A DNA stretch of 64,000 bases from Nitrospirales bacterium (lineage in GTDB: Bacteria; Nitrospirota; Nitrospiria; Nitrospirales; UBA8639): NCBI GenBank assembly GCA_963422365.1, contig OY729426.1, positions 1,376,001-1,440,000 on the forward strand. Reading direction: 5' to 3'. Positions 18,001 to 39,000 of this stretch are shown here, piece by piece (within the stretch, counting starts at the first letter, position 1; each line of letters starts with the position of its first letter). The position numbers were made by a program.

Positions 18001-21000
18001 CCTACCAGGAGGAATACCGGGACTTGGAGGCCTCGGGGGACTTGGTGGCGGCAGTCCTTCCGGTGCACCACCGGGCGGCTATTAACCGGCTTATGTGGCT
18101 GAGAAAAGGTGCGAGCAGGCATGGTGCCTGCTTCCCCTTCCTTTGTAAGGAGTGGCCAGGGGAGGTAGATCTCCATCTTCACGCATGCTTCCCCGCCTTC
18201 CCTTCCCTATGCGCCTTCCCTGTTTGAAGGCGTTTTGTAGCCCGCCAGGAGCATTGTGAGCCCGAGGACGATCATGGGAAAGCTCAAGAGTTGCCCCATG
18301 GTCAGGGAACCCAACACGAACCCGAGATGCGCGTCCGGTTCTCGAAACAATTCAGCGAAGCTGCGAAAAATGCCGTACCCGGCGATAAAACTCCAAAAGA
18401 CCGTGCCGGGTGGCCTGACCTTCCTTCCCAGGAACCAGAGGACACCGAACAAGACCACCCCTTCGAGCGCTGCTTCGTATAATTGCGAGGGATGGCGACA
18501 GGCCGCTCCACCCCTTGGGAAGACCATGCACCATCCGACATCCGTGGGACGTCCGTATAACTCCCCGTTGATAAAATTCCCCAAGCGCCCCAAGCCTAAC
18601 CCGATCGGAACGGCTTGCGTCGCCAGATCCGCAATCGTGTACACTGCGAATCCCTTTTTATAACAGAACAGCCAAATCGCGAAACACGTGCCGAGTAATC
18701 CGCCATGGAAGGACATCCCGCCTTCCCACACGGCCAAAATTTTCCCAGGGTGCTGCAGATAGTAGTCCGTATTGTAAAAGAGGGTATAGCCCAACCGTCC
18801 GCCGAGAAACACGCCAAAGGCGGCATACACAATCAAATCGGACAACTGAACGGTGTGTAACGGGATGTTTCGCGCGGCGGCCCGATGCTTGATCAGAAAA
18901 TAAGCCGTCAGTAGGCCCAGCAAATACATCAGCCCGTACCAACGAAATTGCAGAGGCCCCAACCGAAAAAAGGCCGGATCGATCTCAGGGAAAGAGAGGG
19001 CCGCCCACAATGGAGGGATGAAAGAGTTCAAAACAAATATCCAGTCGAAAATCCAGACGACAGCTCTGACCACGGCAAATGAGACAATGTGCGAAGCGTG
19101 AGTGCATCCTAGGGAGGCGTCGTTGGTTTTTCAAGGGAGGCCCGTTGTCATGCTGTCGCCGTAGGCGAAGAATTATTCCCCCGGTCAGGGACGAGGGCAG
19201 GCCGTATATAGCCTGCCCGTGTCATTCCCGCGGTTTTTAGCGGGAATCCAGGCCCCTTCCCCTGGAGAGAGCGGGTGGAAGAGATGGATCCCCGCTTACC
19301 CCTGCGGGGATGACACGAAGAGGGCTTGGTCCCGACGTCTGTCATCGGAAGACGCTGTCCCACAAGACTGGTGTGTTGTGCGGGCGAGCAGTCTTTCCCA
19401 AAACTTGCCTCTCTGGTGTGTGACGGAGTAGAGTTTGCGCTAACAATCCTGTTGCGACTGGATACGGAACGGAAAGGATCGAGAGATGAGTGACGAAGCT
19501 GTAACGCACGCGAGTCAGGGAAGCCAGGCGTCCCAAGAGGCCGTGTTGCCCGGCGTCAAATATATTATTGCGGTGGCGAGTGGAAAAGGCGGAGTCGGAA
19601 AATCCACGGTCTCGACCAATGTGGCCGTGGCGTTGGCGCAGACCGGCGCGAAAGTCGGGCTCATGGATGCGGATATTTACGGCCCGAATATTCCCATGAT
19701 GATGGGAGTACCGGAACCACCGAGGAAAGAGGGCGACAAAATCAGGCCGGCTGAAGCGCATGGCGTGAAGATCATGTCCATGGGGTTTTTCGTGCCGGAA
19801 GAAACCGCCATTGTGTGGCGGGGCCCCATGGTGCATACGGCCATTCAGCAGTTTTTTCGTGACGTGCTGTGGGGGGAACTGGACTACCTGTTGGTGGATT
19901 TGCCGCCGGGGACGGGGGATGCCCAGCTCAGTCTCTCCCAAATCGTTCCGCTGACCGGCGTCGTCACCGTGACCACGCCACAGGAAGTGGCATTATATGA
20001 CGTGCGCAAGGGCGTCATGATGTTTAAGAAAGTGAACGTCCCGCTCTTAGGCGTGATTGAAAACATGAGTTTCTTCGTCTGCGGCCATTGTGGAGAACGA
20101 ACGGACATTTTCTCGTTTGCGGGTGGAGAGCGAGCGGCGAAAAAATTCGACATTCCCTTCTTGGGGCGCATTCCCCTGGATTCTGCAATTCGAGAGGGTG
20201 GAGACGTAGGCATGCCGATTGTCTCAGCTGTTCCGAATTCTCCGCTCACCAAAGCGTTTCAGGGTGTGGCCGAAGCGTTGCAAGCACGCGTGAAGGAGTT
20301 AACGAGTGAATCAACGGGGGTAACCCTGAGTGAGATGGTGAAAAAGTTGAAAGAACCAATGGCGTGATGGAAGGCACAGGTTCAAATCGAATAGGCGTTC
20401 ATTGACTCGGATGAAATAGTGGTGGAGGATCCCGATGGCTGAAAGGGTCAAAGTAGCAAATACGGACGAGTTGGAACCCGGGCAAGGCATGGTCGCCGAA
20501 GTCGGCGGCAAAGAGATTGCCCTCTTCAATGTCGGCGGCATGTTTTATGCTCTGAACAATATCTGTGTGCATCGTGGGGGGCCGTTGGGTGAGGGTGAGT
20601 TGGACGGCGAAGTGGTCACCTGTCCCTGGCACAACTGGGAATACAACGTGACGACCGGGGCCTGTCTCACGAATCCGTCCACGTGTGTGGCTCAATTCCC
20701 TCTGGTGGTGGAAGGGAACGAAGTCAAGATCGACCTGTAACCTGTCAGAGGGTTGCCGTCATCAGATCCGCCTGTTGTAGGAGAAGGTCTACAGCGCCTT
20801 CACCAAGCCATTGCAAAGCAACCTCATTGTTGACCGATGACACCCAGTGAATTACCCCCCCCCCCCCCCCCCCCCCGAAACTGTGGTGAATCGAATAGCG
20901 AGATCACCGTACCGCTGGTCGTTGACGTTGATGGCTCGCTGGTCGGCGGCGATCTGTTGATCGAAGGCGCCTTCCAGCTTCTCGCCGTCTCCCCGCTCAC

Positions 21001-36000: not shown

Positions 36001-39000
36001 ATGGGCACTGCATCGGTCGGGCTCACCTACCTGATCGGCAAGAGCATTTACGGACATCGTTTCGGGTTGCTGTCTGCCGCTTTGCTGGCGGTCAGCACGA
36101 TGCATGTAGCCAATTCGGCCTGGGCGACATTGGATGTTCCAAGCTCCTTTTGGCTTGTTTTGTTCTGCTGGTTGCTTGTGCGGACCTCGTCCTGTCTTCA
36201 TCACTGGAGGTTGCTGGGCGTAACGCTGGGCGTTCTGATCGGAACAAAATATACTGGTGGGATAGCTGTCATTGTCCTGATAGTCGCGGTTGTTGGGGAG
36301 TTGCGCCGGGAAAACAGCCCGGTGAAGGTCGTAGGAAGATCGGCGATTACCAACTGCCTGTGGGCAATCGGAGGGATTGCGGTCTCGGCATTCTTCCTGT
36401 CGACCCCGGGAATTCTCGTGCAACCGGATATGTTTCTCCAGTCAATTGCGTTCTTGTCGGCACAATTCACCCCCTACCCGCTCCTTCTTAACCTTCTCAA
36501 GATCGCCGACGCCTTAGGAACGACGGTAGCCGTGGCGACAGCAATTGGTATGGCAGGATGTTTTGCGTTTGCGTCGGGGCGTAAATTGAGACCTTACGCG
36601 ATTGCGGTAGCGATCTTTATTCTCTGCTGCGTTACTTTCATTAACACACCGCCTCGTTATATCATCCTGATTGCGCCACTTTGTGCACTATTGGCCGGCT
36701 ACGCCGCTGTGCAAGCCTGTCTTCTCGTTCGCAAAGGGAGGGTGATGATTATCGGTTTCTGTATCCTTGTCTTCGGCTACAACGGAATCCATACCTTGCG
36801 AACCGTCGCGGCTCGATATCCGGACTCCCGTTCCCTGGCGGAACACTACATCTCCGAACACGTCCCGGACGGTGCAACGATCGGTTTCATGTACGAGTCG
36901 GATGCTGTTCCCTATCCACTTTACAAATGGCGGTATCCGCAGGTCGATCTCGAACGCGTGGTCTATACGGATTTCCTGCAGAGCCCCGAGTATGTTGTCG
37001 TATCCGAATATGCGGTCGGCGAGGTGAAGAAGATACTGAATTCCGGTGTTCTGAAAGGAGATTACAAGGGTCCGCCCGAGTTACGGGTCAGGTTCTGGCG
37101 ATTGAATCCTTCGTCGAGAATTTTCGAATTCGTGGATCAGCTCTATTTCTCCGAAGATTCGCCGTATCGCCGCACAAGGGAATTTCGTACGCTGCATGGC
37201 CACAATCCATCGCTCGAGTTTCCTTCGCCAACCATCGAGGTATTTCGCCGAAAGGCAGGGGCGAGCGATTATGTGGCGAGGCTTATCGGCGACAGTCGGC
37301 CGATCATCCGCTCCGGCTACGATGTGTATCTCATCGAGAACAGTCTCATCTACGTAAAGGAGTCATGCAGGAAGGATCGCATTCAGGCACGTTTTTTCCT
37401 GCACGCGATCCCGGTTGACGCGACCGATCTCCCTGACCGCTACAAACAGTACGGCTATGACAACCTCGACTTCGATTTCCGAGACCACAGTCTCAGCGCG
37501 AGAAATATCTGCGTGGCGAGGCGGGAATTGCCGGACTACGACCTTGCCGCCTTCGCACCGGGCAGTACATACGCGTGGAAGGCGGTTTCGATAACATCTG
37601 GGAGGGTGGCTTCGAGGTGACGGAGCCGGTGGGCAGCGGGGAGGTCGCGCCATGAGCGACAAGCACAAAACGGCACTGGTGATGGGTGCCACGTCTGATA
37701 TCGGCCGCGCCATCGCGCGCCAACTGGCGCACCGCGGCTATGCGTTACAGCTTACGGCGCGCGACCCCGTGCGACTCGAGCGGGAAGTGCAGGACCTCTG
37801 GGTGCGCACCGGCGCTGCAGTGACATCGTATTGCTGGGACGCGCTCCGGGACGGTGGCGGCGCCTCGTTCCTTGATACGCTCGACCCCTTGCCCGATGTG
37901 GCAGTGTGCGTCGTCGGACTGCTCGGCGACCAAGCGGAGAGCCAGCGAGACGGCGTGGCGGCGGAGCGGGTGATGTGCACCAACTATGTCGGTCCCGCGC
38001 TGCTGATGGGGGCGCTGGCCAAGCTCTTCGAGCAGCGCGGCAGCGGCGTCCTGGTTGGCGTCAGCTCGGTGGCGGGCGAACGCGGGCGCGCGTCGAACTA
38101 TGTGTACGGTTCGGCCAAGGCGGGACTCACCGCGTTCCTGTCCGGGCTGCGCAACCGGCTGGCCCGCTCCGGCATCCACGTGGTGACGGTCAAGCCGGGC
38201 TTCGTGCGCACCCGTATGACCGACGGAATGGACCTGCCGGCGCGGCTGACCGCCACGCCCCAGGAGGTGGCCGCTGCGGTCGTCCAAGCGATCCGCCGTC
38301 GCCGTGACGTGGTATACGTGCGCCGCGTCTGGCGCCCGATCATGCTGATCGTGCGCGCGCTTCCGGAACGTATTTTTAAGCGGCTGAAATTGTAAGTATT
38401 CATGATTTCGCCAACAACGATGGACTTCGAAAACTCGGGGGAAGTCGGTGACGATGTTTATGTCAATGACACCAAATTGATAGACACAAAGAGCGCGTGT
38501 AGCCAGGACGACGTTGGCCCAAAATTCCGGCTGTACCTGATTCCGGTTTGACGAGGAGCCAAGGCTATCCACCGCCTGAACCCCATCGAGTTGGTACGGC
38601 TGGCTAGTGCAACGGATCAACGACCGTAAAGAATGGGAAGCGATGAAAATCGGTGTCACGAGTGCAGAGCCGGCCAACACCGTGCTCGTGCATCAACACC
38701 GCGGTGTGGAGGTCATGCGTTGTGTTCCCACTGAAGTCCGGCAACTCTGTCAACGTCTGCGACAGGACAGCCGAGTGACGGTCCGTCGCGGTGTAGGGCG
38801 CCATCTTATGTCGCCGCTCTTGGCCGCATAAGATGCGGCTCTTCAGCTAAAGCGCCAAGCGTCTCCAGGATTCAATGTCGGCCGAAATACGCCAGGGTGG
38901 GTCCTGACCAGAAGGAACGCTAAGAGAGGTTCCCTGCGAGAAACACCAGCGATGGTTCAAGCCGCCATTGCTCGATTCGTCGCCTGCAGACTTCGTGAAA

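What a model noticed while it worked through the whole genome (the two positions that open the first line are those of the whole stretch)
20837..38395. A decaprenyl-phospho-arabinose type arabinan cluster, shared among co-resident organisms, in a Nitrospirales genome
Fourteen co-directional genes g01430-g01443 encode the three enzymes that make the lipid-linked D-arabinofuranose donor of mycobacteria (UbiA/NoeC-type phosphoribosyl transferase g01430; DprE1-type FAD oxidase g01431, 40% identical to M. tuberculosis DprE1 over 452 aa; DprE2/Rv2073c-type SDR g01443, 39%), an AftB-like arabinofuranosyltransferase (g01435, 27% over 350 aa), a PMT_2 GT-C enzyme (g01442), a GMC oxidoreductase and two paralogous 8-TM proteins of a large family without any Pfam model (g01434, and g01439+g01440). 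Five of the proteins end in one to four copies of the same unassigned ~100-aa beta-rich module. The cluster predicts a D-arabinofuranose-containing envelope polymer in a G [...]
Evidence so far: swissprot.tsv rows; all-vs-all BLASTP: g01434 vs g01439 82% over 599 aa, C-terminal module shared by g01433, g01434, g01436, g01440 (several copies), g01442 at 40-55%; no Pfam hit at E<1 for g01433-g01436; >1000 homologues of g01434 with invariant DDxFYYxQ...NGYHPxW motif, none named; ESM-atlas look-alikes include PMT_2/ArnT GT-C clusters at 0.95. search_genomes call 54: DprE1 homologue at E<1e-40 in 7 of 60 other Nitrospirales. lay_reads call 84: in three metagenome runs the cluster interior (L067 3300-16700) has 3-15 times the word depth of its flanks and many SNPs, and call 56 finds 80-91% identical copies on contigs of 1.8, 2.1, 6.1 and 6.6 Mb, i.e. 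in other genomes.
(Added by a program. Inside this text positions count along the whole contig: contig position 1,376,001 is position 1 of the stretch shown here. "Call 12" and the like, gene names such as g00115 and contig names such as C1 are that model's own, and its searches are not shown. The text may have been shortened before it was handed on; [...] marks where a part breaks off. The agent that wrote the report below was given it as the finding of a first reader that could run no searches.)

Follow-up and report, generated by a model that had tools for sequence, protein, structure and literature searches.

The report
Shared, switchable surface-sugar tailoring gene array
This nitrite-oxidiser relative recently picked up, from unrelated neighbouring bacteria, a known arabinose-donor pathway loaded with a shuffled array of uncharacterised sugar-transfer enzymes that carry a new tail domain and probable on/off DNA switches, likely used to vary the cell surface.

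Summary
The cluster is real, but it looks like a surface-decoration system, not a mycobacterial arabinan. It is a ~19 kb island absent from the same site in four congeners. Its ends (HAD-fused PPPRS, dprE1, dprE2) match a pathway already described in Gram-negatives; the GtrA flippase seen in sister copies was not found in this genome. Between dprE1 and dprE2 lie GT-C cassettes (fold now shown for g01434, Z 19.9), five ending in an unannotated Ig-like, probably disulfide-bonded ~100-aa module. A 12 kb block is 94% identical, in patches 99%, to a Pseudomonadales genome, closer than core genes are to the nearest congener. The module also tags other periplasmic glycan-tailoring enzymes, reaches 43 matches per genome, and was found only in MAGs of lineages typical of sponge microbiomes (habitat inferred), seven phylum-level groups. 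G/C runs cluster at the 5' ends of these genes and often shift the frame; one is G10 (off) in two samples and G12 (on) in another, suggesting phase variation. Most cassettes are broken here, and 15 of 43 genomes with this GT-C family gave no DprE1 match, so sugar and acceptor remain inferred. New variant of a known kind.

The parts
20743..39800 (.). Genomic island inserted between a Rieske ferredoxin gene and lipA; GC 0.56-0.65 against 0.534 for the genome; limits approximate
   Evidence: Site holds only 0.4-3.1 kb with no cluster sequence in G001, G005, G007, G014
20837..22330 (+). HAD phosphatase fused to UbiA-type polyprenyl-phosphate phosphoribosyltransferase (PRP-PPPRS); DxD, NDxxDxxxD and KRxxE motifs present
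   Evidence: motif roles from PMC11127046; only 72% nt to the sister copies, so from a different source than dprE1
20855..20876 (+). C22 tract six codons after the first ATG of the first gene; candidate master phase switch
   Evidence: C13 and C10 tracts at the same place in L060 and L014; contigs across it are 2 letters shorter (X1) and 1 longer (X2), gap place not listed
22327..23658 (+). DprE1-type FAD oxidase, intact; HGKNHH, QYQ and AKD motifs kept, Ala at the Cys that benzothiazinones attack (residue role recalled)
   Evidence: 442 bits, cut-off 500; 97.7% nt to L002
23655..25590 (+). GT-C-like cassette 1 (g32+g33), split at a G10 tract (24165-24174); one module at 25240-25551
   Evidence: One 686-aa ORF in L002; paralogue in the second island has PMT_2; G10 in X1 and X2, two more G in X5; 99.2-99.8% nt to L002
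25587..28058 (+). GT-C cassette 2 (g01434), intact; starts with a dprE2-like N-terminal remnant; DD motif after helix 1; one module at 27729-28037
   Evidence: AF2 pLDDT 82.8, pTM 0.85; top 20 structural matches all GT-C-fold enzymes or GPI-transamidase subunits
28060..30200 (+). AftB-like GT-C cassette 3 (g35+g36), frameshift near 29662; one module at 29850-30161
   Evidence: whole (760-aa ORF) in L002; break not resolved by contigs
30197..30268 (+). 5' remnant of dprE2 (about 22 codons)
   Evidence: 83% nt over 81 bases to the dprE2 start
30298..31647 (+). GMC-family FAD oxidoreductase, no module
   Evidence: 98.2% nt to L002
31649..32011 (+). 120-aa protein with a twin-arginine-like N-terminus; probable export partner of the GMC enzyme (inference from known periplasmic sugar dehydrogenases, recalled)
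   Evidence: sequence; no family
32019..35122 (+). GT-C cassette 4 (g39+g40), paralogue of cassette 2, frameshift near 33766; three tandem modules (34094-34402, 34448-34753, 34799-35104)
   Evidence: 502-base identical run with cassette 2 next to 61-72% patches
35124..35592 (+). Truncated second aftB-like copy: 5' part followed by two short pieces of the aftB-like interior
   Evidence: self-BLAST
35416..37620 (+). PMT_2 GT-C cassette 5 (start uncertain); module 37300-37575 with a frameshift near 37552 in its last strand; host-specific among the genomes compared
   Evidence: no match in L001-L005; contigs at flank depth with no gap in X1 and X2, one inserted base in X5
37652..38395 (+). DprE2-type SDR reductase, intact; closes the array
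   Evidence: 198 bits, cut-off 250; PRK07102 334 bits, cut-off 267
38604..39351 (-). Probable vapBC-like antitoxin/PIN pair remnant at the right end of the island
   Evidence: weak Pfam hits below cut-off: FitA-like RHH E 0.006, PIN E 0.07

Best explanation
A horizontally shared, modular surface-glycosylation island. The PRP-PPPRS loads ribose from PRPP onto a polyprenyl phosphate (probably undecaprenyl), DprE1/DprE2 epimerise it to D-arabinofuranose, a flippase (GtrA in sister copies; another protein or none here) exports it, and several GT-C enzymes add single sugars as branches or caps to an envelope glycoconjugate outside the membrane. Each transferase ends in an Ig-like module that most likely binds the common acceptor glycan, as the CBM of GT136 does. 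Cassettes accumulate in front of dprE2 and are exchanged and re-assorted by recombination in the module repeats, within genomes and across phyla, and G/C runs near gene starts switch cassettes or the whole operon on and off. The outcome would be variable surface glycans in a dense symbiont community, for escape from phage or host recognition. Shown: genes, folds, island, transfer, shuffling, tract enrichment. Inferred: sugar, lipid, acceptor, module function, active switching, sponge habitat, selective purpose.
For: Pathway homology and the published scheme (PMC11127046; bioRxiv 2020.04.19.049825 abstract). ubiA-(gtrA)-dprE1-[cassettes]-dprE2 order in 13 of 69 related loci, with differing cassettes and 0-11 tandem modules. 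GT-C fold. Module: beta-sandwich, two invariant Cys, within 20 aa of the C-terminus in 148 of 150 proteins, carried by PMT_2, Wzy_C, GtrII, GDSL, arylsulfotransferase and DMFA2_C proteins. Third-position identity 0.97-0.985 to a Pseudomonadales genome for dprE1, g33 and gmc against 0.80-0.87 for four core genes to the closest congener tested. Block ends fall in modules or at gene joints; dprE2 5' remnants recur; alternative joints in the runs. G/C runs of 9 or more: 40 in 0.48 Mb of cluster-type genes against 22 in 0.99 Mb outside; 24 of 103 leaders have a run of 7 or more against 1.8% of random windows; leader out of frame in 7 of 15 with a run against 2 of 22 without, p 0.017; 7 of 10 breaks in GT-C bodies lie at such runs. 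The first gene of the second module island (GT2) also has a poly-C run after its ATG in three genomes.
Against: No biochemical or expression data. GtrA not found in G000. Only one of the five GT-C cassettes is free of a frameshift here, and three of the four breaks are not at long runs. 15 of 43 genomes with the g01434 family gave no DprE1 match, and only 19 of 67 loci have dprE1 within 10 kb, so the transferases are not tied to Araf. DprE1 and DprE2 fall below the NCBIfam equivalog cut-offs. Long-read errors also concentrate at homopolymers and a core gene nearby has a 1-base deletion; enrichment at runs of 12 or more is not significant (13 vs 16, p 0.12); 63 of 100 leaders could not be scored; the loci share ancestry, so the p-values overstate. 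The module's fold scores are middling (best Z 8.3 a cytokine receptor, CBM56 6.9). Some clusters have the transferases without a detected module (L014, L015, L018, L045).
Confidence: 0.6

Rival explanations
1. The island works in its donors but is a decaying passenger in this Nitrospirales genome.
For: No GtrA; four of five cassettes frameshifted, two breaks confirmed in contigs of two samples; a truncated aftB copy; ubiA/dprE1 scraps elsewhere in the genome; 17 of 18 congeners gave no module match.
Against: ubiA, dprE1, dprE2, gmc and g01434 are intact; ubiA directly abutting dprE1 without GtrA also occurs in L005, L036, L055, L060, L061; ArnE/F may replace GtrA in P. aeruginosa (abstract) and G000 has an SMR gene; G000 holds three module loci.
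Confidence: 0.25
2. The cassettes are general GT-C enzymes that use whatever lipid-linked donor the host makes (ribose, a GT2-made hexose or others), and the DprE pair serves only some of them.
For: Same family in 14 Dehalococcoidia and 1 Latescibacteria genome with no DprE1 match but a 30-38% PPPRS-like UbiA; a second island starts with a GT2 gene; a DMFA2_C cassette of that island is matched inside the dprE1-dprE2 array of G033; GT136 accepts two pentoses.
Against: Cassettes of this family directly follow dprE1 in many loci; 28 of 43 genomes do have DprE1. This reading is compatible with the best explanation and only widens it.
Confidence: 0.35
3. The module is a protein-docking tag that assembles tailoring enzymes into a complex or on a scaffold, rather than a glycan-binding module.
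For: It tags unrelated enzymes; Ig/Fn3 folds often bind proteins; conserved hydrophobic and aromatic residues; it is present in monoderm and diderm hosts whose glycans should differ.
Against: Tandem expansion to 10-11 copies suits avidity for a repeating glycan; GT136, EmbC and AftD carry glycan-binding Ig-like domains in this position; no scaffold gene was seen in the loci mapped.
Confidence: 0.25
4. A mycobacterial-type arabinan polymer is built in this Gram-negative envelope.
For: Donor enzymes and an AftB-like protein; several GT-Cs could supply different linkages; TfpW polymerises Araf in P. aeruginosa (abstract).
Against: No Emb, AftA or AftD family hit; g01434 is no closer in fold to arabinosyltransferases than to other GT-Cs; cassette content varies freely between copies.
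Confidence: 0.1
5. The near-identical sharing is a metagenome-assembly chimera.
For: Short-read contigs break inside the repeats, so the inner joints are not spanned.
Against: Single closed contig, 98.6% complete; core-ubiA and right-end contigs at flank depth with no differing letters in X1 and X2; identity to each other genome is a mosaic of 72-99.8%; a congener (G005) has its own versions; a second island is shared at 88-93%.
Confidence: 0.05

Closest known systems
Three-component extracytoplasmic pentofuranose systems, Citrobacter youngae O1/O2 PRP-PPPRS + flippase + GT136 (PMC11127046; parts 2-6 of 8 read, supplements not seen)
   Same: N-terminal HAD fused to PPPRS with the same motifs; DprE1/E2 as the Araf epimerase; GT-C with a C-terminal Ig-like domain; the paper mentions clusters with several GT-Cs
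   Different: Here an array of GT-Cs of at least four families without a specific model, a shared tandemly repeated module, G/C tracts, no link to an O-antigen locus, no flippase in this copy, and 99% cross-phylum sharing
Pseudomonas aeruginosa Pa5196 PsPA7_6246-6249 with TfpW (bioRxiv 10.1101/2020.04.19.049825; abstract and outline only)
   Same: Donor genes with a GtrA-like component, DprE1 and DprE2 in a Gram-negative; GtrA may be partly replaced by ArnE/F
   Different: One transferase beside the pilin there; here many cassettes lie between dprE1 and dprE2 and the acceptor is unknown
Mycobacterial DPA pathway and AftB (PDB 21gq, 9dlf)
   Same: DprE1, DprE2 and DPPR-synthase homology; AftB-like N-terminal DD region
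   Different: No Emb/AftA/AftD hits; AftB-like protein far below the family cut-off; fused HAD phosphatase
Simple-sequence-repeat contingency loci of Neisseria, Campylobacter and Helicobacter glycosyltransferases (recalled)
   Same: Poly-G/C runs in 5' coding regions of surface-glycan genes that change the frame
   Different: Here in GT-C and donor-synthesis genes of uncultured symbiont-type lineages of many phyla; switching rate not measured

Membership tests
Three-component pentofuranose system | PPPRS with conserved loop motifs and a phosphatase | tested here: met
   motifs as
Three-component pentofuranose system | Dedicated flippase gene | tested here: not met
   PF04138 not found in G000, 98.6% complete; present in L002 and matched in 11 of 69 loci; an SMR gene lies elsewhere in G000
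Three-component pentofuranose system | GT-C transferase | tested here: met
   g01434 model Z 19.9, rmsd 4.4, 375 aligned to Pmt; Z 15.6 AftB; Z 15.2 ArnT; PMT_2 above cut-off for g01442
Three-component pentofuranose system | DprE1/DprE2 pair for Araf | tested here: met
   best PDB hits; slightly below the mycobacterial equivalog cut-offs
Three-component pentofuranose system | Pentofuranose shown on a glycan | not testable with these tools
   needs chemistry
Mycobacterial arabinan synthesis | Emb/AftA/AftD priming and polymerising transferases | tested here: not met
   no such Pfam or NCBIfam hit among the cluster proteins; the rest of the genome was not searched for them
AftB (terminal beta-1,2-arabinofuranosyltransferase) | Score at the NCBIfam cut-off | tested here: not met
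   30 bits against 1050 for the whole copy in L002
Carbohydrate-binding module | Beta-sandwich fold like known CBMs | tested here: inconclusive
   Ig/Fn3-type sandwich; CBM56 Z 6.9, rmsd 2.9, 81 aligned; many non-CBM rows alike
Carbohydrate-binding module | Binds a glycan | not testable with these tools
   needs binding assay
SSR contingency locus | Homopolymer runs enriched in coding 5' regions | tested here: met
SSR contingency locus | Length variation that changes the frame | tested here: inconclusive
   G10 vs G12 between samples, G10 vs G11 between copies in L016; sequencing error not excluded
SSR contingency locus | High-rate reversible switching within a population | not testable with these tools
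   the one raw-read run laid no reads
Integron cassette array | Integrase beside the array | tested here: not met
   no integrase among the island and flank ORFs scanned; cassettes overlap start-to-stop
Integron cassette array | attC sites | not tested
   not searched

The most novel reading that the evidence does not exclude
Co-resident symbionts of at least seven phylum-level lineages share a community-wide, plug-and-play surface-glycan toolkit: dozens of periplasmic tailoring enzymes per genome carry one new module that directs them to a common glycan scaffold and also serves as the recombination handle that re-assorts them, while G/C switches set which are on, giving the microbiome a shared and rapidly varied surface code for host tolerance or phage escape.
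Probability: 0.3. Interest if true: 0.85.

Novelty: new variant of a known kind. Interest (0 to 1): 0.63.

Why it matters
How sponge symbionts avoid being eaten by a filter-feeding host, and how they withstand phage at high density, are open questions (own knowledge); surface glycans are prime suspects. This gives a concrete marker (a module in 2,235 clusters at 50% identity with no Pfam family), new GT-C families, evidence of very recent cross-phylum exchange without a visible mobile element, and a testable switch. The donor pathway itself is not new outside Actinobacteria.

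Tried and rejected
Pfam/NCBIfam/PDB sequence searches gave no family for the g01434 family or the module. 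ESM Atlas: no usable hit for one module; ricin-type lectin hits at 0.79 or less for three modules are within what shuffles give and were not used. Foldseek gave no E<=0.001 match for the module. No module relative in plasmids, phages, IMG/VR or JGI metagenomes; the last two are pattern-limited, so this is not proof of absence, and no mobile vehicle was identified. No Rfam family or tRNA in the window. Profile comparison of the g01434 family with the AftB-like protein aligned only the module. No RNA holder listed; the raw-read run X12 laid nothing. The frameshifts at 29662 and 33766 could not be assigned to biology or error because paralogous and foreign contigs overlap them. Literature searches found no paper joining sponge symbionts with DprE1/arabinofuranose, with phase variation, homopolymers and glycosyltransferases, with HGT, long reads and glycosyltransferases, or with the PMT family; one search listed nine unrelated papers; led to one passage naming GT83 as abundant in sponge Chloroflexi (PMC6306507, passages). 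The library lacks most subscription papers and the supplement of PMC11127046 (Figs S11, S12, further clusters) was not seen. Earlier findings of this scan: none on this sequence; two unrelated notes on this genome. No complex prediction was run.

Full report
Observation. The + strand from 20837 to 38395 holds a tightly coupled operon. The first gene is a HAD-UbiA fusion above the cut-off of NCBIfam PRK08238 with the aspartate motifs shown to matter in the Citrobacter PPPRS (PMC11127046). 22327-23658 is a DprE1 homologue, 37652-38395 a DprE2 homologue; both fall slightly below the mycobacterial equivalog cut-offs. The 14 ORFs reduce to 11 genes: g32/33, g35/36 and g39/40 are single genes broken by frameshifts and whole in the sister copy L002 or in the paralogue, and g41 is a truncated second aftB-like copy. 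Seven module copies lie in the cluster and seven more at two other loci of the genome.

The unnamed transferases. With 115 sequences the model of g01434 (599 residues before the module) reached pLDDT 82.8. Its 20 best structural matches are all GT-C-fold proteins (Pmt Z 19.9, AglB 17.2, AftB 15.6, ArnT 15.2; Foldseek agrees), with no preference for arabinosyltransferases. A DD motif follows helix 1. The family had 1,031 hits among 8,000 candidates scored; none of the 120 listed is named.

The module. It folds as an Ig/Fn3-type beta-sandwich (pLDDT 81.8; best Z 8.3, CBM56 6.9) with two invariant cysteines and a conserved TGQ...W end across 496 dereplicated copies, which points to an extracytoplasmic place. 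It is found in 2,235 clusters at 50% identity, up to 10 copies per protein, at the C-terminus in 148 of the 150 best hits. Of 50 of these 150 scanned, those with a plausible family were PMT_2/PMT (9), GDSL (2, below cut-off), Wzy_C, GtrII, arylsulfotransferase, DUF2079 and GSDH (the last two below cut-off); 29 had no hit. By analogy with the GT136 CBM it probably binds the acceptor; this is inference.

Distribution. All 67 loci of the g01434 family and all 70 loci of the module returned from the GTDB collection are MAGs of Dehalococcoidia, Caldilineaceae, Latescibacteria, Entotheonella, Binatia, Acidobacteriota, Alpha- and Gammaproteobacteria and Nitrospirales (best 80 of 115 and of 387 matches kept). 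The host's lipA is closest to Nitrospirales MAGs including Nitrospira sp. bin75. That these lineages are typical of marine sponges is recalled knowledge, supported for SAR202 and Caldilineae by PMC6306507 (title and passages); habitat was not tested. The module is all-or-none: 1 of 30 other Nitrospirales, 1 of 200 randomly drawn Dehalococcoidia, none in JGI metagenomes, IMG/VR, plasmids or phages, but 7-43 matches in 16 of 18 chosen genomes.

Transfer. The island is missing between the Rieske gene and lipA in all four congeners examined. A 12 kb block is 93.9% identical to a Pseudomonadales MAG (L002), other blocks 88-96% to a Thalassobaculaceae MAG with three copies and to a gammaproteobacterial MAG. 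Identity is a mosaic: 72% for ubiA, 99.2-99.8% for 23500-25500, no match for the PMT_2 cassette. Third-position identity to L002 is 0.97-0.985 for dprE1, g33 and gmc (0.89-0.90 for g34 and dprE2) against 0.80-0.87 for four core genes to the closest congener tested. The second module island (GT2-led) is shared with the same three genomes at 88-93%. Contig depth rises over the shared parts, while ubiA and the PMT_2 cassette sit near flank depth in X1 and X2 (three contig runs, two studies, one possibly the source). No integrase or phage vehicle was found.

Shuffling. ubiA-(gtrA)-dprE1-[cassettes]-dprE2 is seen in 13 of 69 loci, with different cassette sets and 0-11 tandem modules. Shared blocks end in modules or at gene joints. 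Remnants of the dprE2 start precede several cassettes here and in other loci (22 non-full hits, at least two of them other SDRs), as expected if cassettes are added in front of dprE2 and inherit its start. g01434 and g01439 share a 502-base identical run beside 61-72% patches. Alternative joints such as dprE1-gmc and module-dprE2 exist in the runs.

Switches. A C22 run follows the first ATG of the operon and a G10 run breaks cassette 1. G10 is supported by gap-free contigs in X1 and X2 and is two bases longer, in frame, in X5. Runs of 9 or more G/C are 3.7-fold denser in cluster-type genes than in the rest of the same loci (40 vs 22), 24 of 103 g01434-type leaders have a run of 7 or more (control 1.8%), and such leaders are more often out of frame (7 of 15 vs 2 of 22; 63 unscored). 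The GT2 gene of the second island has a poly-C run after its ATG, out of frame, in G000, G031 and G032. Against: runs of 12 or more are not significantly enriched, loci are related, and long-read errors mimic slippage.

Limits on the arabinose reading. GtrA lies between ubiA and dprE1 in L002 but was not found in G000. DprE1 was matched in 28 of 43 genomes with the g01434 family; the 15 without are 14 Dehalococcoidia and one Latescibacteria, all with a distant PPPRS-like UbiA. So Araf is the best guess for this operon's donor, following the rule in PMC11127046 that Araf glycans go with DprE1/E2, but not for the family as a whole. Monoderm hosts also argue against LPS as the only acceptor (inference).

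Verdict. The donor pathway in a Gram-negative is known (PMC11127046; bioRxiv 2020.04.19.049825). The modular, tract-bearing, cross-phylum cassette array and its module were not found in the papers searched. New variant of a known kind; interest 0.63.

Noticed in passing
G000:C1:940700-951100 (L154): Second module island: GT2 gene with a C15 run out of frame after its ATG, two unclassified membrane proteins, a PMT_2-like GT-C and a DMFA2_C protein, the last four ending in the module; shared at 88-93% with G031-G033.
   Followed up: partly
G000:C1:117275-123139 (L155): A 1509-aa He_PIG/Big_9 repeat surface protein flanked by scraps of the ubiA 3' end and the dprE1 5' end, as if these scraps served as recombination arms or are left from an earlier island.
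   Followed up: partly
G000:C1:25882, 47501, 2463252, 2484891: Four copies of a gene that looks like a two-partner-secretion transporter (judged by eye) carry G20-G41 runs at the 5' end; other runs of 15 or more lie in long ORFs at 891249, 1666590, 1777135 and 1964137.
   Followed up: no
window 51643-53106 (-): MFS transporter apparently split near a G13 run at 52451.
   Followed up: no
window 45060-46060 (+): ABC ATPase with a 1-base deletion at about 45829 relative to G001; possible assembly error, used as background.
   Followed up: partly
G005:C1:152000-170000 (L081): A congener has its own array with at least four tandem AftB-like-plus-module genes after dprE1 and a GMC gene.
   Followed up: partly
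window 54733-55857 (+): Pentapeptide-repeat protein upstream of scpA/scpB.
   Followed up: no
G000:C1:2336998-2338173 (L156): Lone membrane protein with one module, no Pfam family, probably a fragment of the type at 944077.
   Followed up: partly
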